A stretch of DNA of 64,000 nt from Leucoraja ocellata. Lineage: Eukaryota. Below, in pieces: positions 2,942-62,692 of the stretch. The translations under genes were made by a program, and so were the position numbers. Numbering within the stretch: position 1 is the first letter of the stretch; every line of letters starts with the position of its first letter. The notes beneath the pieces were generated by a model. It had not been told where the DNA came from. It saw only the letters and a list, made by a program, of their open reading frames with translations, and ran no database searches. The stretch is taken from the NCBI GenBank assembly GCA_036785375.1, contig JAWMAR010000391.1, positions 1,674,001-1,738,000 on the forward strand, read 5' to 3'.

Positions 2942-3262
<321 letters not shown>

Positions 3263-6220: not shown

Positions 6221-7197
6221 CAATAGGTGCAGGAGTAGGCCATTCAGCCCTTTGAGCCAGCACCACCATTCAATGTGTTCATGGCTGATCATCCCCAATC
6301 AGTACCCCGTTCCTGCCTTCTCCCCATATCCCCTGATTCCGCTATTTTTAAGAGCCCTATCTAGCTCTCTTGAAAGCATTCAGAGAACCTGCCTCCCTCT
6401 GAGGCAGAGAATTCCACAGACTCACCACTCTTTGTGAGAAAAAGTGTTTCCTCGTCTCCGTTCTAAATGGCTTACTCCTTATTCTTAAACTGTGGTCCCT
6501 GGTTCTGGACTCCCACAACATCGGGAACATGCTTCCAACCTCTAGCGTGTCCAAGCCCTTAACAATCTTATATGTTTCAATGAGATCCCCTCTCATCCTT
6601 CTAAACTCCAGAGTGTACCAGCCTAGCTGCTCCATTCTCTCAGCATATGACAGTCCCACCATCCCGGGAATTAACCTTGTAAACCTACGCTGCACTCCCT
6701 CAACAGCAAGAATATCCTTCCTCAAATTAGGGGACCAAAACTGTACACAATACTCCAAGTGTGGTCTCACTAGGGCTCTGTACAACTGCAGAAGGACCTT
6801 TTTGCTTCTATATTTTATTCCTCTTGTTATAAAGGCCAACATGCCATTTGTTTTCTTCATTGCCTGCTATACCTGCATGCTTACTTTCATAGACTGATGT
6901 ACAAGGACCCCATATCCCTTTTCCCAACTTGACGCCATTTAGATAGTAATCAGCCTTCCGGTTTTTGCTACCAAAGTTGATAACCTCACATTTATCCACA
7001 TTAAACTTCATCTGCCATGCATCTGCCCACTCCCCCAACCTGCCCAAGTCACCCTGCATTCTCATAGCATCCTCCTCACAGTTCACACTGCCACCCAGCT
7101 TTGTGTCATCTGCAAATTTGCTAATGTCACTTTGAATCCCCTCATCCAAATCATTGATGTATATTGTAAATAGCTACGGTCCCAGCACCGAGCCTTG
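6221..7197 (-). mobile_element. CR1-type LINE, 5'-truncated (RT C-terminus and 3' UTR)
   Basis: SKFADDTKLGG, WQMKFNVDKCEV, LYRALVRPHLEYCVQFWSP, RRMRGDLIETYKI, FFSQRVVSLWNSLP. Confidence 0.92.
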
Positions 7198-12288: not shown

Positions 12289-12561
12289 ATAGAAACATAG
12301 AAACATAGAAACATAGAAATTAGGTGCAGGAGTAGGCCATTCGGCCCTTCGAGCCTGCACCGCCATTCAATATGATCATGGTTGATCATCCAACTCAGTA
12401 TCCCGTACCTGCCTTCTCTCCATACCCTCTGATCCCCTTAGCCACAAAGGCCACATCTAACTCCCTCTTAAATATAGCCAATGAACTAGCCTCAACTACC
12501 CTCTGTGGCAGAGAGTTCCAGAGATTCACCACTCTCTGTGTGAAAAAAGTTCTCCTCATCT
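12289..12561 (-). mobile_element. CR1-type LINE 3' end with (tttctatg)n tail
   Basis: (tagaaaca)3, then aggtgcaggagtaggccattcggcccttcgagcctgcaccgcc; the reverse complement of the end seen at 62600-62692. Further copies at about 13835-14010, 27250-27390 and 42995-43240. Confidence 0.85.
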
Positions 12562-14616
12562 ATGCTAATACCATTTGTCTACTCCTTACTCTCCAGGTAC
12601 CTATTCTTTAAAGTGCAGTAACTATATCTACTTCTACCACCATCTCTGGAGGTTTGTTACATACCACCACCACCTTCTATGTGAAAAACCTGCTCCTCAG
12701 ATCACCCATTTCATGTTAAATCTATACCCTTAAGTTTTAAGAATGTCTTACCCTGAGAAAGACTCTAACTACCATATGTATGCCCTTCATAATTTTCTAA
12801 ACCTTTATAAAGTCATTTCTCAGTCTCCTAATTAAGAGAGAACAATCTAGACTATCCATTCTTGTAACCAAACCCCACCATCCGACGTAACATCCTGCTG
12901 AATCTCTTTCTAATGTTACCACAATCTTCCTTGGTGTGGCAACCAGACTTGTGCACAATACTTCAAGTGGAGTAAATCTACAACATGATGTCCCAACTAT
13001 AGACATAAAGTGTTGGAATAACTTTATGGGTCAGGCAGCATCTTTGGATAAATAGGATGTACCAACTCTTGTACTCAATGGCCCAACCTAGAAGGTAAGC
13101 ATGTCAAATGTTTATCACATTACCCTATCCACCTGCTTCGCCATTTTCAGGGAATCACGAACTTGTACCCCAATACTTCTATGTACCTCAACACGCCTTA
13201 GATCCTTGCCATTTGCTGTATATGTTCTGCACTTATTTGACGAGCCATAATATTGGCTTCGTTCTGGATTAAATTCCATCCACCCAACTTTTATCCCCAC
13301 AGTTTAATATATTAGTCTGAAACTTCCTTGACGATCTTACCACAAACATGACATTAGTTTCCTCAGGTGGGACGAATCTAAGTTACAAGCTAAATTGGAT
13401 CACTGTCATACTGCAAAGTCAGAATTACAGAGAGAGGCAGAAAGTCCATTTCTAGATTTTCACAAAAGGACACAATGTTCTGGAGTAACTCAGCAAGACA
13501 GGTAGCATCTCTGGAGAACATGGATAGATGATGTTTCAGATCAAGACACTACTTTATAGTGTTTCATAATATTTGCAACTCTGCGGAGTCACCTCAAGAG
13601 AAAATTCCCTTTCCAGTTATAAAGCAGAAATCTATCCAATCTTTCCTACTAACTCAAGGCCCAACAGTGGATGATCCTCATGACGCTTTATCATCATTTC
13701 CAGTGTTTGATATCTCCAACGTCTCGTTAACTCTCACTGGATGCAATTTACTGTACTTCTAATAAATAAATAAATAAATAAATAAACTCTCACTGGATGT
13801 TACAAAAAACTCAAGCTGTTGCTGACATGCATGATAGAAACATTGACACATAGAAAATAAATGCAGGAGTAGGCCATTCGGCCCTTCGAGCCAGCACCGC
13901 TATTCAATATGATCATGGCTGATCATCCAAAATCCGTACCCCGTTCCAGCTTTTCCCCATATCCATTGATTCCTTTAGCCTGAAGAGTTAAATCTAACTC
14001 TCTCTTGTTAGATATAGTTTGATCAAAACATCTTCTCACATGTACTCTACTGTTTTGACTAAGTATCTTTCCAGTGGCAATTGAATGCCAAGATGAATCA
14101 ACTACACATTAAGTCTTCAAATAAATCAGCTGCCAAGCTTCCTTTCATCTTAAGTGTATATGCCGCCCTCTTTTCCATCTGCTGAAATTAGATTGTGGCT
14201 TACTAAATTTCATGTGTAACTGTTTTGGCCAGTATTTTCTTTAAACCATTTTGTGTTTTTTTGTGTTTTGGGTATACCTTGCGTATGTATGCAAGCAAAG
14301 AATTTCACTGTGACTTGTCACATGCAACAATAAAGTATTCATTCATACAATTATAGATAATTGGAATTACGAAAATGATAAAGAATTCCAATTAGCAATT
14401 TAGGATTAAGTTTATCATTGGGGCAGATGCTACATCATATAATGGGTAAATTCATTAACCGAAAAGGAATACGTGGCTCTTATGATTTCCTGTGCTGCAC
14501 TAATGTATGAGGGAATTGGAGTGGAGTTTCTCAGAAAATGTACTTCCCTTATTTCCCTTCTACATTTTTTGCTTAGAATCATGAAGTATGTGGGTGCGCT
14601 GGGTAGAGGGGAGTTA

Positions 14617-45120: not shown

Positions 45121-46609
45121 ATCTCCAAAGCTTCCATGTCTCCATGTTGGAGTAATACAACACTTATTCGGTTAATGGCCACATGCCTGGCATTTGTTTA
45201 ACTTCACTGAAGATTCTTTGAGATAAACTGCACAAATAACATTTTGTTAGTGCATATTTAATTAATAAACAAACAATATAATCCTGGTCGTAATTGATTT
45301 AGTTAAAATCCAAGATCAAAGCAGAGTTTAAGAGTTAAAATCACAAAAATAGGAGCAGGAATTAGCAATGTGGCATCGCAGGCCTGCTCTGTCATCCATT
45401 AAAATCATGCTCATCTGGTCTTGGCCTCGTCTCCACCATAACCCTCAATTCCCCACGACATCTAAACAAGCAGGGCTTGAATATATTCAATAACTTGGCC
45501 TCCATGGCATTTGGGCAAGCATGCTTCAAAAACATTGGCACTCAAATGAACTGCTTCTCATCATCTTGGTTGTAAATGAGTAACTCCATATTTTAAACTA
45601 TGCTCCTTAACTCTAGAGTCCTTCCCAAGGAGAAACATCCCCTCAACATCCATCTTGCCAAGCCTGCTCTGAATTTGATGTTTCAATTCACCTCTCATTC
45701 TTCTGAACTGCAATGAGTACAGGGCTCACCTAATTGATCTTTCCTTACAAGACAACTCGCTCAATCCATAAATCAGACGTAAACCTTCTGTGAACTGCTC
45801 CCAATAGAGGACAAAAAGATATACAGTACTGTAGGTTTCCAGTATAGTGTTTAGTTTTGGGCACCATGTTATAGGAAAGATGTTGTCAAGCTGGAAAGGG
45901 TACAGAGACGAGTTACAAGGATGTAGCCAGGACTTGAATGTCTGAGCTATAGGGAGAGGTTGAGTAGGCTGGGACTCCATTCCTTGGAGCGCAGAAGGAT
46001 GAGGAGTGATCTTATAGAGGTGTATAAAATCATAAGAGGAATAGATCGGGTAGATGCACAGAGTCGGGGGGGATCAAGGACCAGAGAACTGAAGCAAATA
46101 AAGGCAAGCAGAAGAACCAACTTTGGAGGGGAGAGAGAGAGAGATGGAAAAAAACACTAAATAACGTGAGTGACCGAATGAGGGACCTACCTGCAAGCCA
46201 GCCAGGAAACCTATTCGACCGGAGCCCATAATGACCTGACCCGTTGAAATCCAATACCCGTTTAAATCTTTCCCATCCACCAATACATCCAATTAGTTCA
46301 AATGGTTCTGAAGAAAATTTTATCTGAAGTACACTTTGTTAATTGAATGTTAAGGGGCATGAATCCAGAGGGATGAAATTACCCCTCCGTCAATCCCTGG
46401 CATGAACACCAAAATGCACTATTCTGATATAATCTACAAAATTATGCTGAACAACTGGCATTGCTCCAACAAAAATATAGTAATGTATTAATGTCAAATG
46501 TTAAATGCAAATGTAACATTAATTTGCCTGCTAAATCAGATTGTAAAGCATTTCAGCACAGAAAAAAATTATTTTGCTGTGAATCCTCCAAACTCACTGG
46601 AAGAACAAG

Positions 46610-55071: not shown

Positions 55072-58000
55072 CTGCTACTTGTTGTCTATACGCTTTGAAA
55101 GCAGCTTGCCTGAAGGTAGGTTTTATTCTAACTTTCTTTGCAGCTTCAGGAGGAGGTTCCTCTGGAGCAGTCTGATTTTCTTGACTTTCTGAACATTTTT
55201 CTGGAACAGCATCATTTTCTGCCTCTTCTAAGATTTCAGCTATAGGCTCTTCTGCCTTTTCTAAGATTTCAGCTATAGGCTCTTCTGCCTCTTCTAAGAT
55301 TTCAGATATAGGCTCTTCTGCCTCTTCTAAGATTTCAGCTATAAGCTCTTTTTCTTCATTAAGACTGCCGACATCATAAGAGCCCTCTTCACTGTCTTCA
55401 GCTACATCTGGGACAGTAAACTCTTCCAAAGGCTCCGGTGATAATGTCTGTTCATTACTTTCTTTATGAAATGTCTTATTTTCCAGTTTTGCAAGAACTT
55501 CCTCCATCACCTCAACATAATCCATTCCATGTTCTCCTGCTTGTTCACTGGACTCATCTTCCTCAGCTCTATAATAGTAAGGCTCATAATAAACATCAGA
55601 ATCAAGAGTAGTGCTTGATTCGCCTGCTGTAGATTGAGAAAAGGTCCTCAAACGATCCATAAAATTGCCTCTCACCTCTTCTTCACTCAAACTCTGGGTA
55701 CTTCTAGAGTCCATTTTATTCCAAACAACTTCCAAGGCAGATTTAGCACGTTGAAGTGATGATCCAAATTTCTGAAAACTGAATCCAGTATCTGAGAGAT
55801 CAATACTCAAGTGACTATGCCAGGATTTAGCAGGTGTCTCTGCTGGGTCATTGTCATTAGGTAGCTCACTCTGACTGTGACATCTTAGTGGAGATCTGTT
55901 TTGATACTGATAATAATCAGTAGAATACGAGTCATGATAGGGGTTATATGCATTTTCCCACTGATTTTGAGGTTCCCCATCAAAATCAATACATTCAGAA
56001 GTGTCAAATGTTGCCTCATATATTTCCTCCTCGTAGTCTTGGCCAGCAGCCTGATAATTTTCATCAAAATCTGTTGTGTAGCTCAAGACATTTTGCTCTG
56101 ATGGGCTATTTACTTCAGAAGCAAAGACATGCTGTGAAGTGCCTAGACCAGAGTCTGTGCCTTGTTCCAGATGCTGCCATTCTTTCCATGGCGAGAGGTC
56201 ACATTGCAAGGACAACTGAGAATCACTGTAATGGCTTCTCTCACCAGATGCACATATTAACCCATTGCTCATGCCACTATCAGCAGTTTCTGTCTTTTCC
56301 GCTTCTGTTTGTCGCATGTAATGTTGGTCTTCATAGTCATATGGTTGATTACTGGTATTAATCCAAGAGGATGCTCCTTCTTCTTTACCTCTTAACCAAA
56401 TATCCTTTTCTGAAGATGAAACAACCGAGGCACCATCTGCTCTGAGAAAGAACTGATTGTCTGAAAAATCTTCAGAGTATGATACTGACTGACAGAGCTT
56501 CGAAAAATCGGACTCTGAGTGACTGAGCTTAGTTGTGCAGCAATCACTCTGCAGCCACGTGGGTGAGAGCTCATTGTAGTAAGGCTCTGTCTGTTTCTGG
56601 GCGTCTTCAAGTGGAGGTGAATGTAAATTGTCAGCAGTACATAACTGCGTTGAATTTGAATATGAGCTACAAACAACAGTTCTGTCAACGTTAACAACAT
56701 TGTGAGATTCTGCTCCTAATTTTGAAGAGAGGAGTACTTTCTCAAAAACTGCTTTTGAACTAACTTCAAAACTGCGGCTGTGAAGGGCTTCCTCCAGGTC
56801 TTTGTCACTGGATGCTGATGATGCCCACTCACTGCCTCTCGGCTCCTCTTCAGCCGTCGTTAACTTCATATTCATACTTTCATAGGTCTGAGATTTTGGT
56901 GGAAGTGAAAATTCCTTTCTGTCATTTGGCTCATGAATTATCTCTGTGGAAATTCCAATGCCAGAACCTTTCAATTTATAACATTTTTTGAGAATTAAAT
57001 CTCTATTCTGTGGATTGTCAAAATACACAAGAATAGGGCGGGGCTTAGCACTGATACAGTCTCGCCTCTGCCCCAGTCTATGGGCAAGTTCAATCTGAAC
57101 AGTTTGTCGTGCATCCGTAAGCCCTAACTTGTCTTCTATAATTGCATAAATTATATTTTCAGTATTCTCGTGCACATCTTCTGGTACATTAATAAATCTT
57201 AGGTTTACACAGTTTCCTTGATAGTTAATTTGTCTAATATAGTCATGGATATCTCTGGTTTCTCTTCTGGACTGTACAAATCCAGAGCGTAACTGCTCAA
57301 TTTCAGTTTGCACCACTTCCACACTTGTGGAAATTTCATCAATGGACTGTTTCAGAGCATTCACATGCCCACGCAGCTCACACAGCTCAGTTTCTATTTG
57401 ACTTATTCCTTGAAGTTCCTTAAAGATCATTTCCATTACATCGTGAGTCTGACTGATGCAGCCAGTTGAACTGAATGTTGGTTCTAGTCCACTCTTCTGC
57501 TGCAAGCGCCCAGTTCTGTCCAAAGATTTGCTCCTGAAACCAAGAGACTTTTTCCAAGTACTCATTTCTGTCTCTGAGGAAATACACTCTTGACTTTTCT
57601 TCCATTTGCGAAGTTTACGTAACGCACCTAGTCGTAGTATTGTACGATCCGTATCCGCGCTTCCATCTGACGCAGCAAGGCTACTGACACTTTTCCTATT
57701 CCTTCTGACTGGCATAGTGTGAGACTTCTGCTCCTTCACCTTCTGAGAAATACTGACTTCATTCAATGATTCAGAGGCAGCACTACCAACTGACCAGACC
57801 ACCGGACCCTGTTTATCATTACTGGTAGAATTTAGTTTTCTTTCCAGTCCATTGGCTATGGCCACCCTGTAACTCAATGTGGGAGAAAGCGAATACTCTG
57901 CCCTTCCTTGCTCTTCATCCACGGACAAATTACGAGCAGATTGGCATTTTGCTAATCGTTTGACAGTGGTCTTCAAATTTGTGGAAAATTTTTGATTTTG

Positions 58001-58150
58001 AGCCTGATTTGCTTGCGAGTGCCTTAGTAATTTGTGGTCACTATTACTCTCCCTTTTTCTTGTTGTATTTGCTTGTTTCCTAGCAAACATTCCTTTGTAA
58101 AACTTTGCAATGTAAGCTTGGAGCAGATTCTTCAAAAGGGAAGCAACCAT
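55072..58150 (-). CDS. UNC13C: UNC13C (Munc13-3) giant first coding exon, CDS part (1026 codons + 1 nt), N-terminal region
   Basis: The 1042-aa ORF matches the recalled vertebrate UNC13C N-terminus (MVASLLK.., LSPTLSYRVAIANGL, HTMPVRRNRKS, HDVMEMIFKELQGISQIETEL, KSWHSHLSIDLSD, LQRAKSALEVVWNK, DYVEVMEEVLAKLEN). The true ATG is at 58150; the ORF track starts at an upstream TTG. Donor GCAG|GTACGA at 55072/55071, phase 1. Confidence 0.96.
55217..55348 (-). repeat. Coding tandem repeat, 4 x 33 bp (11-aa unit EPIAEILEEAE)
   Basis: The plus-strand unit ttctgcctcttctaagatttcagctataggctc occurs at 55217, 55250, 55283 and 55316, each with at most one mismatch to that unit. Confidence 0.95.
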
Positions 58151-58405
58151 AGGGAGGGGCAACAGGTATTATCGATTCCAGTCAGTTCCGTGGAACTTTG
58201 ATCAAGCGAATTACACATTTGCATATAACATTTTTGTACGTGGCATGAACAGCATATGTCGTATATCCCAGCAAGTAGATGATATTTATAGGATATAAAA
58301 TATTTAAGCAGATAACTGCCAGAAATAAGTCATAATGCTTTTGCATCTATAAGTCCTGCGGGATGGGCAATAGCACTGAACCAGCTGGATATCCCATGTC
58401 TGCCT
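58151..58405 (-). other. UNC13C: 5' UTR portion of the giant UNC13C exon (255 nt), with splice acceptor at 58405
   Basis: The minus strand reads ctaat-ttcttctttttttgtaacag|AGGCAGAC: branch point, polypyrimidine tract and AG. This implies an upstream non-coding exon that was not identified in the window. Confidence 0.75.
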
Positions 58406-61974: not shown

Positions 61975-62692
61975 ATGCAATGAGACCTGGGTGTCATGGT
62001 ACACCAGTCATTAAAAGTAGGCATGCAGGTGCAGCAGGCAGTGAAGATGGCGAATGATATGTTAGCATTCATAGCAAAAGGATTTGAGTATAGGAGCAGG
62101 GAGGTTCTACTGCAGTTGTACAGGGTCTTGATGAGACCACACCTGGAGTATTGCGTACAGTTTTGGTCTCCTAATCTGAGGAAAGACATTCTTGCCATAG
62201 AGGGAGTACAGAGAAGGTTCACCAGACTGATTCCTGGGATGTCAGGACTTATGAAGAAAGACTGGATAGACTCGGTTTGTACTCGCTAGAATTTAGAAGA
62301 TTGAGGGGGGATCTTATAGAAACTTACAAAATTCTTAAGGGGTTGGACAGGCTAGATGCAGGAAGATTGTTCCCGATGTTGGGGAAGTCCAGAACAAGGG
62401 GTCATAGTTTAAGGATAAGGGGGAAATCTTTTAGGACCGAGATGAGGAAAACTTTTTTCACACAGAGAGTGGTGAATCTCTGGAATTCTCTGCCGCAGAA
62501 GGTAGTTGAGGCCAGTTCATTGGCTATATTTAAGAGGGAGTTAGATGTGGCCCTTGTGGCTAAAGGGATCAGGGGGTATGGAGAGAAGGCAGGAACAGGA
62601 TATCCTCCATGATCATATTGAATGGCGATGCAGGCTCGAAGGGCCGAATGGCCTACTCCTGCACCTATTTTCTATGTTTCTATGTTTCTATG
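61975..62692 (+). mobile_element. Young CR1-type LINE 3' portion with (tttctatg)3 tail
   Basis: LQLYRVLMRPHLEYCVQFWSPNLRKDILAIEGVQRRFTRLIPG / RRLRGDLIETYKILKG..FFTQRVVNLWNSLP; one frameshift. Confidence 0.92.

What the first reader, a model, noticed from the sequence alone, without database searches (positions are those of the whole stretch)
56938..57445. LINE ORF1p-like module (coiled coil + RRM + CTD start) embedded in frame in the UNC13C/Munc13-3 N-terminus: candidate domesticated retrotransposon protein in a synaptic priming factor
Seen: the giant exon encodes a heptad-rich helix ([58 protein letters not shown]), followed from 57205 by NLRFINVPE-DVHENTENIIYAIIEDKLG-..ARQTVQIELAHRLG-..AKPRPILVYF-..RDLILKK-..LKGSGIGISTEI. 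Established (recalled): human L1 ORF1p has a trimeric coiled coil followed by NLRLIGVPE-..ENTLQDIIQE-..ARQANIQIQEIQR-..ATPRHIIVRF-..KEKMLRAA-..LKGKPIRLTADL, and many non-LTR ORF1 proteins carry the IERAHR and KPRPI(I/L)V.F motifs. Motif order and spacing are colinear. The recalled mammalian UNC13C has the same block (LRFLNVTE..IEFAQRIG..KPRPILVYF..LKGTGIGISTD), so it would have been kept since the origin of jawed vertebrates. Inference: an ORF1 was captured into the unique, intronless, C2A-less N-terminal exon of Munc13-3, parallel to L1TD1. It could trimerise Munc13-3, drive condensates or bind RNA at active zones. I know of no functional study of this module, though domain databases may already flag it.
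Basis: partly seen in the sequence, partly recalled or inferred. Interest (0 to 1): 0.92.

Follow-up and report, generated by a model that had tools for sequence, protein, structure and literature searches.

The report
Retrotransposon domain in two Munc13 proteins
A piece of an ancient jumping-gene protein sits in the front end of the synaptic protein Munc13-3, as one paper already remarked, and the same piece is also in its sister protein bMunc13-2, where its coiled coil is the known anchor to the synapse's release site.

Summary
Confirmed. The first coding exon of UNC13C (Munc13-3) carries a coiled coil plus a LINE ORF1p-type RRM: Pfam Transposase_22 above cut-off, Foldseek top ten all human L1 ORF1p. 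ORF1p's C-terminal domain is absent. The UNC13C homology is already in print as an unanalysed aside (Kitao 2025, PMC12129022).

Not found in print: the brain isoform of UNC13B (bMunc13-2) has the same whole module (profile-profile E 7e-31), from shark to mammals. B and C form one clade among free ORF1-type proteins (moderate support), so one capture preceded the gene duplication. Its coiled coil is the published ELKS1-binding, active-zone-targeting motif of bMunc13-2 (PMC5379939).

The coil is 92-94% conserved and models as a trimer (0.71 vs control 0.01; may be from memory). A protein scaffold is likelier than RNA binding.

Limits: ORF1 origin of the coil itself is inferred from position; the donor clade is unresolved; lamprey was not tested; this genome's UNC13B shows no such exon. 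The scan had no earlier finding on this.

The parts
55072..58405 (-). Giant first coding exon of UNC13C (ends inferred from splice signals); ATG at 58150
   Evidence: Open frame 58168-55034; 84% identity to sawfish UNC13C residues 1-997; pyrimidine tract and AG before 58405, AG|GT at 55072/55071 (sequence only, no reads laid)
57440..57715 (-). Conserved basic block just upstream of the coiled coil; origin not determined
   Evidence: 75-77% mean identity to bony vertebrates over exon residues 151-240; no ORF1 match shown
57224..57442 (-). Coiled coil of about ten unbroken heptads; the most conserved part of the exon; predicted trimer interface
   Evidence: Helix 2-74; 91-96% identity between this fish and bony vertebrates; heptad a/d pattern; trimer model contacts at residues 3-74
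57287..57442 (-). Part of the coil shared with bMunc13-2, paralogous to its ELKS1-binding motif
   Evidence: 42-56% ungapped identity over 52 residues, sawfish UNC13C against 120 UNC13B-type proteins; 52% reported in PMC5379939
56942..57205 (-). LINE type II ORF1p-type RRM, with no CTD after it
   Evidence: Pfam PF02994; PDB 2w7a, 2yko, 2ldy by sequence and by fold; invariant E89, E93, R123, R136
55709..55816 (-). Second block shared by the UNC13C and bMunc13-2 giant exons, at the place of the candidate calmodulin site of bMunc13-2 (aa 572-594)
   Evidence: BLASTP; a profile of the B block finds it in 5 of 5 UNC13C N-termini (5.7-11.4 bits), reversed controls score below 0; site numbering from PMC7017353
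11996..12070 (-). Downstream UNC13C exon
   Evidence: tblastn, 96% identity
8358..8435 (-). Downstream UNC13C exon
   Evidence: tblastn; splice signals
2954..3175 (-). UNC13C exon at the start of the C1 domain
   Evidence: tblastn, 97% identity
1189..1413 (-). Next UNC13C core exon
   Evidence: tblastn, 95% identity

Best explanation
A type II LINE ORF1 (coiled coil + RRM + CTD) was captured once into an alternative, C2A-less first exon of an ancestral vertebrate Unc13 gene. This happened before that gene duplicated into UNC13B and UNC13C and before sharks and bony fish split. The CTD was lost. The coiled coil became a protein scaffold. In bMunc13-2 it binds ELKS1 and targets the priming factor to active zones (published). 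In Munc13-3 it most likely self-associates as a parallel trimer and presents a near-invariant surface to a different, unknown active-zone partner, clustering three C1-C2B-MUN priming units. The RRM is kept as a folded accessory domain under weaker constraint and probably no longer works as an RNA chaperone.

Shown here: RRM homology in both paralogues; paralogy of the two exons; loss of the CTD; the conservation pattern. Published: ELKS1 binding by the B coil, and none by the C coil. Modelled only: the trimer. Inferred: that the coil came with the RRM, the unknown partner, the clustering role, and loss of RNA binding.
For: RRM homology in C.

Same module in B: after four UNC13C clusters, the next hits of the C profile among 1.84 billion representatives are UNC13B-type exons matched over positions 2-167 (E 1e-22 to 1e-14). 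B profile against C profile: probability 99.85, 162 columns. The B profile's three best PDB hits are L1 ORF1p (E 0.014-0.042), and the B model's four best Foldseek hits are too (E 0.017-0.038). A profile of the B RRM alone scores 135 of 144 ORF1-type proteins at E<0.01, against 0 of 144 reversed.

Single origin: B+C form one clade with no free protein inside (FastTree 0.913, 156 rows; IQ-TREE 90/65, 57 rows). The exons share a second block about 400 residues further on.

Scaffold role: coil 91-96% conserved against 49-71% for the RRM; coil net charge about -7; trimer score 0.71 against best control 0.01, runs agree in at least 76% of contacts, pLDDT at least 76. bMunc13-2 145-187 is needed for ELKS1 binding, and fragment 70-204, which by alignment ends before the RRM, gives FRET with ELKS1 (PMC5379939).

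Against RNA chaperoning: RRM and CTD are both required (PMC12129022). R261/R262 lie in the missing CTD. R210, R211 and R235 align to non-basic residues (roles from PMC6501352). The B RRM has net charge +0.2 against +4.7 in free proteins.
Against: The coil alone shows no clean ORF1 signal. The B coil profile scores 5 of 144 targets against 5 of 144 reversed. The C coil scores 32 against 8, but the targets were chosen with a profile that held this coil. The junction motif before the first RRM strand, present in 86 of 139 free proteins, is absent from both paralogues.

Pfam finds nothing in 3 of 3 B proteins at E 0.01, and finds Transposase_22 in only 3 of 7 C modules. B+C support in IQ-TREE is below the starred level, on 92 columns.

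The nearest free proteins were not tied to an ORF2: only 1 of 127 hits Transposase_22 at E 1e-5.

The trimer job asked for three copies only, did not use the alignment, and can pass by likeness to the solved ORF1p trimer. On eukaryotes the mark was reached by 17 of 29 solved pairs, by 1 of 7 with no older solved relative, and by 0 of 30 single chains.

The C RRM is still basic (+3.7), with invariant R128, K134, R136, R148, K153, K154, K157 and K159. This genome's UNC13B shows no such exon in about 190 kb upstream of its C1 exon.
Confidence: 0.62

Rival explanations
1. Chimeric origin: only the RRM came from a LINE ORF1. It landed next to a coiled coil that the ancestral Unc13 exon already had or evolved separately, so the ELKS1-binding motif is not retrotransposon-derived.
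For: Coil-only profiles barely beat reversed controls. The junction motif of free ORF1s is missing. In B a variable, low-confidence linker of about 20 residues separates coil and RRM.
Against: In C the heptads run unbroken to seven residues before the first RRM strand. Residues 31-155 align to the human ORF1p coil+RRM with only short gaps. Many free proteins match from profile positions 2-20 onward. A coil at exactly ORF1 spacing would be a coincidence.
Confidence: 0.2
2. The Munc13-3 module still binds RNA or another polyanion (for example acidic lipids) through its basic RRM and the basic block upstream, with trimer avidity replacing the lost CTD. This would make Munc13-3 an RNA-binding or condensate-forming presynaptic protein.
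For: C RRM net charge is +3.7 with 14.8 K/R, against +4.7 and 17.4 in 134 free proteins. Eight basic residues are invariant in 7 of 7 aligned orthologues. A conserved basic block precedes the coil. All 120 listed orthologues keep the full RRM (the list holds the best scorers).
Against: No CTD. Positions 120 and 141, basic in 76% and 94% of free proteins, are hydrophobic in C. The coil is acidic. The B RRM is neutral. Two gadid UNC13C annotations lack the RRM and keep the coil (may be an annotation effect).
Confidence: 0.2
3. Two independent captures of related ORF1s in UNC13B and UNC13C.
For: B+C support is only 90/65 in IQ-TREE. The B branch is long.
Against: The coils are 42-56% identical without gaps, far closer to each other (64-71 bits) than to any free protein (at most 20 bits). 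The exons share a second block and the same place in the gene.
Confidence: 0.03
4. The donor was not a LINE but another carrier of this fold, for example a viral FP25K-like gene.
For: Baculovirus FP25K appears weakly by fold (E 0.055) and among Atlas look-alikes. The genomic context of the nearest free proteins could not be fetched.
Against: Human L1 ORF1p scores better by fold. The module matches ORF1 of a complete L1 in this genome. Eleven of 139 free relatives carry a NADAR tail, an arrangement reported for ORF1 of oyster Tx1 LINEs (PMC12477816).
Confidence: 0.05

Closest known systems
UNC13C ORF1p-like canonical exon (Kitao, Ichiyanagi, Nakagawa 2025, PMC12129022, Methods and Fig. S8)
   Same: Same gene and region (mouse 223-404, coiled coil + RRM, hit to zebrafish L1-11 ORF1).
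   Different: That paper did no further analysis. UNC13B, UNC13A and Munc13 have no occurrence in its ten supplement files, and all five UNC13 mentions in the main text are UNC13C. No dating, paralogue or ELKS1 link.
bMunc13-2 ELKS1-binding coiled coil (Kawabe et al. 2017, PMC5379939)
   Same: Same coil, 52% identical to Munc13-3, conserved from fish to human.
   Different: They called the N-termini otherwise unrelated and ascribed the motif to parallel evolution. The following RRM and the ORF1p link are not mentioned in the sections read. Munc13-3(1-304) did not bind ELKS1.
Lyosin (MYL4-ORF1p) and the RFX5, NUP42 and USP4 ORF1p-fusion isoforms (PMC12129022)
   Same: An ORF1-derived exon fused in frame to a host protein; Lyosin also lacks the CTD and keeps the RRM.
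   Different: Those are alternative, lineage-restricted exons up to about 280 My old, and Lyosin's coil C-half is poorly kept. Here the exon is the canonical one, is shared by two paralogues across jawed vertebrates, and the coil is the best-kept part.
Human LINE-1 ORF1p (PDB 2yko, 2ykp, 2w7a, 2ldy); type II ORF1 of L1, CR1, L2 and R1 clades (PMC4120745)
   Same: Coil followed by the non-canonical RRM, with its invariant Glu/Arg residues; predicted trimer.
   Different: No CTD, no ORF2, single copy per paralogue, acidic coil, several RNA-binding arginines not kept.
L1TD1
   Same: A domesticated ORF1p (search listing only; passages).
   Different: A eutherian stand-alone RNA-binding protein, not a module inside a synaptic protein.

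Membership tests
Type II LINE ORF1p (Transposase_22) | Non-canonical single RRM | tested here: met
   for UNC13C; weaker for UNC13B (Pfam blank)
Type II LINE ORF1p (Transposase_22) | Coiled coil directly upstream of the RRM | tested here: met
   Helix 2-74 with unbroken heptads
Type II LINE ORF1p (Transposase_22) | The coil is itself homologous to ORF1 coils | tested here: inconclusive
   32 vs 8 (C) and 5 vs 5 (B) of 144 against reversed controls, on a biased target set
Type II LINE ORF1p (Transposase_22) | C-terminal domain after the RRM | tested here: not met
   Matches stop at the last RRM strand; no Pfam hit for a CTD family in the 1026-aa exon product; the free relatives continue into a conserved tail
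Type II LINE ORF1p (Transposase_22) | Invariant Glu/Arg pairs of the RRM (human E165, E169, R202, R215; salt-bridge role recalled) | tested here: met
   E89, E93, R123 and R136 in 11 of 11 C rows and 6 of 6 B rows, and in 94-100% of 134 free rows
Type II LINE ORF1p (Transposase_22) | Homotrimer | tested here: inconclusive
   Model passes, 0.71 vs control 0.01, but only three copies were asked for and a like complex is solved
Type II LINE ORF1p (Transposase_22) | Single-stranded nucleic acid binding and chaperone activity | not testable with these tools
   Residue comparison only
Active LINE element | ORF2 (endonuclease and reverse transcriptase) downstream of ORF1 | tested here: not met
   An L1 ORF2 of this genome has no tblastn match in the window, and no RT piece lies in the exon
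L1 clade as donor (versus Tx1, CR1 or L2) | Groups with ORF1s of that clade | tested here: inconclusive
   The C RRM profile scores free invertebrate-type proteins up to 73 bits and five ORF1s of this genome 19-28 bits. The tree is open at that depth. A clade with this genome's ORF1s is not rejected, p-AU 0.277.
Domesticated ORF1-fusion exon | In frame with a host gene and kept across species | tested here: met
   Full-length UNC13C and UNC13B proteins with C1, C2 and MUN domains carry it; protein conservation
Domesticated ORF1-fusion exon | dN/dS below 1 | not testable with these tools
   No orthologous DNA was available; amino-acid identity stands in
bMunc13-2-type ELKS1 anchor | Binds the ELKS1 C-terminus | not tested
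   Published negative for rodent Munc13-3(1-304) (PMC5379939)

The most novel reading that the evidence does not exclude
The whole class of C2A-less, RIM-independent vertebrate Munc13 isoforms (bMunc13-2 and Munc13-3) owes its active-zone targeting to one LINE ORF1p captured in the vertebrate stem lineage. The retrotransposon's trimerising coil became the ELKS1 anchor in one paralogue and a trimeric priming scaffold in the other. This would be older than any ORF1 fusion dated in PMC12129022 and would give a domesticated ORF1p part an experimentally shown synaptic function.
Probability: 0.6. Interest if true: 0.8.

Novelty: new member of a known kind. Interest (0 to 1): 0.62.

Why it matters
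It joins two published observations that were not linked in any paper found here: an ORF1p-like exon in UNC13C, and an unexplained ELKS1-binding coil shared by bMunc13-2 and Munc13-3. It gives a folded domain and a testable oligomeric state to N-termini described as largely unstructured with little functional information (PMC7017353). It makes an open question testable: how Munc13-3, which binds neither through a C2A domain nor to ELKS1, is placed at release sites. For transposon biology it would add a LINE counterpart to the Gag-derived synaptic protein Arc.

Tried and rejected
Locus L009, the second hit of the coil alone in this genome, is a simple tandem repeat and was rejected.

The wide VIA-align search returned only generic coiled coils, best Z 6.6, and barely tested the RRM. 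The viral fold library gave nothing at E 0.001.

Attempts to get DNA around the nearest free ORF1-type proteins all failed: two metagenome scans and one viral scan were empty, and a search for longer fused forms gave one unnamed 480-aa protein. The donor's ORF2 is therefore unknown.

No RhxxhE trimer motif was found in the window's module or in the first 70 residues of 120 B modules (the motif is recalled).

Searches of this genome with the shark B exon found only the UNC13C exon. About 190 kb upstream of each of the other two Unc13 C1 exons gave no module (best E 0.33) and no decayed remnant.

The ELKS1 chain among the PDB hits (8i3e, E 0.29-0.66) is a generic coil match. The sea-anemone record named 'unc-13 homolog C' (249 aa) has no Munc13 core and was rejected as evidence for an invertebrate origin.

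The original ORF1p RRM structure paper was not held. Earlier scan notes gave nothing relevant.
Full report
OBSERVATION. The quoted peptide is present on the minus strand at 57445-56938, inside a 1044-codon open frame that starts at ATG 58150. It is the first coding exon of UNC13C in a cartilaginous fish. Residues 170-420 are 94% identical to sawfish UNC13C (462 hits among 885 candidates, 120 listed), and four later exons lie in the window. Exon ends (58405, 55072) are read from splice signals only.

ORF1p HOMOLOGY. The module passes Pfam's cut-off for Transposase_22 (24.3 against 22.4 bits, E 3.9e-5). The whole exon product does not (20.2 bits), and none of the 120 listed orthologues carries that family in its precomputed list. 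Sequence searches of the PDB put four L1 ORF1p entries first (E 8.7e-6 to 7e-4; 1.4e-6 to 2.9e-5 with a seven-sequence profile). The AlphaFold model (pLDDT 84) is a 73-residue helix followed by an RRM. Its ten best Foldseek matches are all L1 ORF1p, ahead of ordinary RRMs, though none reaches E 0.001. In this genome the module also matches 38 other places. Of eight inspected, one is a complete L1 with a 1270-aa endonuclease-RT ORF2. The ORF1p C-terminal domain is absent, and no ORF2 is attached.

ALREADY IN PRINT. Kitao et al. 2025 (PMC12129022; I read the abstract, the Methods passages, the Discussion and supplement hits, and passages of the preprint) found UNC13C in a screen.

WHAT IS NEW: THE PARALOGUE. 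A profile of seven UNC13C modules was run against 1.84 billion cluster representatives (1768 hits, 150 listed). After UNC13C itself came six proteins matched over the whole module. These include horse and Anolis UNC13B, an emu protein and a basking-shark protein; the shark record is unnamed and is assigned to B by the tree (100/99). A profile of these six finds 394 proteins, the named full-length ones being UNC13B of mammals, birds and reptiles. All 115 newly listed ones keep the full RRM (the list holds the best scorers). B and C profiles align over 162 columns (probability 99.85, E 7e-31). The B side reaches ORF1p on its own, though weakly. The top three PDB hits are L1 ORF1p (E 0.014-0.042), as are the top four Foldseek hits of a pLDDT-68 model. 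The B RRM profile scores 135 of 144 ORF1-type proteins against 0 of 144 reversed. Pfam finds nothing in three B proteins.

ONE CAPTURE. On the RRM alone, B and C form one clade with no free protein inside: FastTree 0.913 on 156 rows (five free proteins dropped for short coverage), and IQ-TREE 90/65 on a 57-row subset. That support is moderate. Stronger evidence lies outside the RRM. The coils are 42-56% identical without gaps. A second block, at the place of bMunc13-2's candidate calmodulin site (PMC7017353 passages), is shared too. Both paralogues carry the module in cartilaginous fish, so the capture predates the duplication and the shark/bony-fish split (over 400 My; date recalled). Only five of the 150 listed hits have a Munc13 core, all UNC13B- or UNC13C-like. 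Lamprey and hagfish were not tested. Against universality: about 190 kb upstream of this genome's UNC13B C1 exon shows no such exon, nor does the same span at the other paralogue, taken to be UNC13A. The exon may be lost here, or missed.

DONOR. The nearest free relatives are 139 mostly unnamed proteins of about 100-580 aa; the named ones are from a coral, a sea anemone and a snail. They score up to 73 bits with the C RRM, against 19-28 for five ORF1s of this genome. One of them finds the UNC13C exon as its best match in the whole genome (67 bits, next 48). Type II ORF1s occur in L1, CR1, L2 and R1 clades (PMC4120745 passages). Eleven of the 139 carry a NADAR tail, as reported for oyster Tx1 LINE ORF1s (PMC12477816 passages). 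That is indirect evidence that the set holds LINE ORF1s and hints at a Tx1-like donor. Their DNA context could not be fetched. An origin beside this genome's own ORF1s is not rejected (p-AU 0.277). The clade stays open.

HOW IT MOST LIKELY WORKS. Against 19 bony vertebrates the coil is 91-96% identical, the RRM 49-71%, and the rest of the exon 3-84%. Core positions are mostly Ile, Val and Leu at both a and d, a pattern recalled as favouring trimers. A three-copy model passes (0.71 against best control 0.01; runs agree in at least 76% of contacts; pLDDT at least 76), with contacts only along the coil. It may pass from likeness to the solved ORF1p trimer, and two or four copies were not compared. 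Kawabe et al. 2017 (PMC5379939; I read passages and sections 7 and 14) showed that bMunc13-2 residues 145-187 bind ELKS1 and target the protein to active zones. They also showed that the 52%-identical Munc13-3 coil does not bind ELKS1, and called the N-termini otherwise unrelated. That motif is the first part of the module described here. The best reading is that the coil is a scaffold: an ELKS1 anchor in B, and in C a trimer with a different partner.

RNA binding looks lost or weakened. RRM and CTD are both needed. Of the arginines named in PMC6501352 (passages), R261 and R262 lie in the missing CTD. R210, R211 and R235 align to non-basic residues, and R206 is kept in this fish but not in most orthologues (numbering counted from the RRM start at 157). 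The four invariant Glu/Arg residues of the fold are kept in all 17 B and C rows. The B RRM is neutral (+0.2), but the C RRM is still basic (+3.7 against +4.7 in free proteins), so polyanion binding by Munc13-3 is not excluded. Two gadid annotations drop the RRM and keep the coil.

MAIN WEAKNESS. That the coil itself came from ORF1 rests on position and spacing. Coil-only profiles score 5 against 5 (B) and 32 against 8 (C) of 144 targets versus reversed controls, on a biased set. I put about 0.75 on a shared origin of coil and RRM, about 0.9 on a single capture of the RRM, and about 0.65 on a scaffold rather than RNA-binding role.

NOVELTY. No paper in the held library has UNC13B + ORF1p + LINE-1 or Munc13-3 + LINE-1 + domesticat. 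None of the 12 listed for Munc13/retrotransposon/domesticat/ORF1 (296 papers hold at least three of the four terms) mentions Munc13. Kitao's supplements do not mention UNC13B. Most subscription papers are outside the library, and the preprint's supplements were not read. Verdict: real; known as a remark for UNC13C; a new member (bMunc13-2), an older date and a link to a known synaptic function are added here. Interest 0.62.

Noticed in passing
G000:C130, about 5,171,000-5,367,000 (L030-L049): This genome's UNC13B locus shows no bMunc13-2-type first exon, although a basking shark has one; possible loss in this lineage or a gap in detection.
   Followed up: partly
L035:2768-10000 continuing into L034:1-1674: An open frame of about 2970 codons lies upstream of the shared UNC13B exons; probably another giant exon, with no ORF1 match.
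   Followed up: no
P0137, P0151, P0153, P0158, P0176, P0183, P0192, P0197, P0220, P0221, P0233: Eleven of 139 free ORF1-type proteins end in a NADAR domain; reported before for oyster Tx1 ORF1s (PMC12477816). One other (P0232) ends in UPF0029 and one (P0247) in Baculo_FP_2nd.
   Followed up: partly
P0125, P0273: Two gadid fish UNC13C annotations lack about 80 residues of the RRM and keep the coil; real deletion, internal splicing or annotation effect not decided.
   Followed up: partly
P0161 (XP_020903896.2): A 249-aa sea-anemone ORF1-type protein is named 'protein unc-13 homolog C', apparently through this module; it has no Munc13 core.
   Followed up: yes
one search list, e.g. P0281-P0287: Many bird records named 'UN13C protein, partial' are 86-93% identical to the emu B-type module, so are probably the UNC13B brain exon.
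   Followed up: no
window 55214-55345 (-): About four acidic 11-residue repeats near the end of the exon, in a stretch with 3-10% identity to bony vertebrates.
   Followed up: no
window 57440-57715 (-): A conserved lysine/arginine-rich block precedes the coil, where ORF1p has its N-terminal region; origin and role untested.
   Followed up: no
window, e.g. 6369-7086, 12404-13279, 45816-46136, 61978-62597: Many decayed fragments matching one LINE reverse-transcriptase frame of this genome (CR1-like, label recalled) in the introns and upstream.
   Followed up: no
L001:811-4610 and L008:702-3474: An ORF1 of the L1 type is followed in two loci by an endonuclease/RT region whose motifs look L2-like (label recalled); composite family or nested insertion not decided.
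   Followed up: no
L009:1-4256: A long short-unit tandem array with open frames of up to 924 codons; source of a false coil hit.
   Followed up: yes
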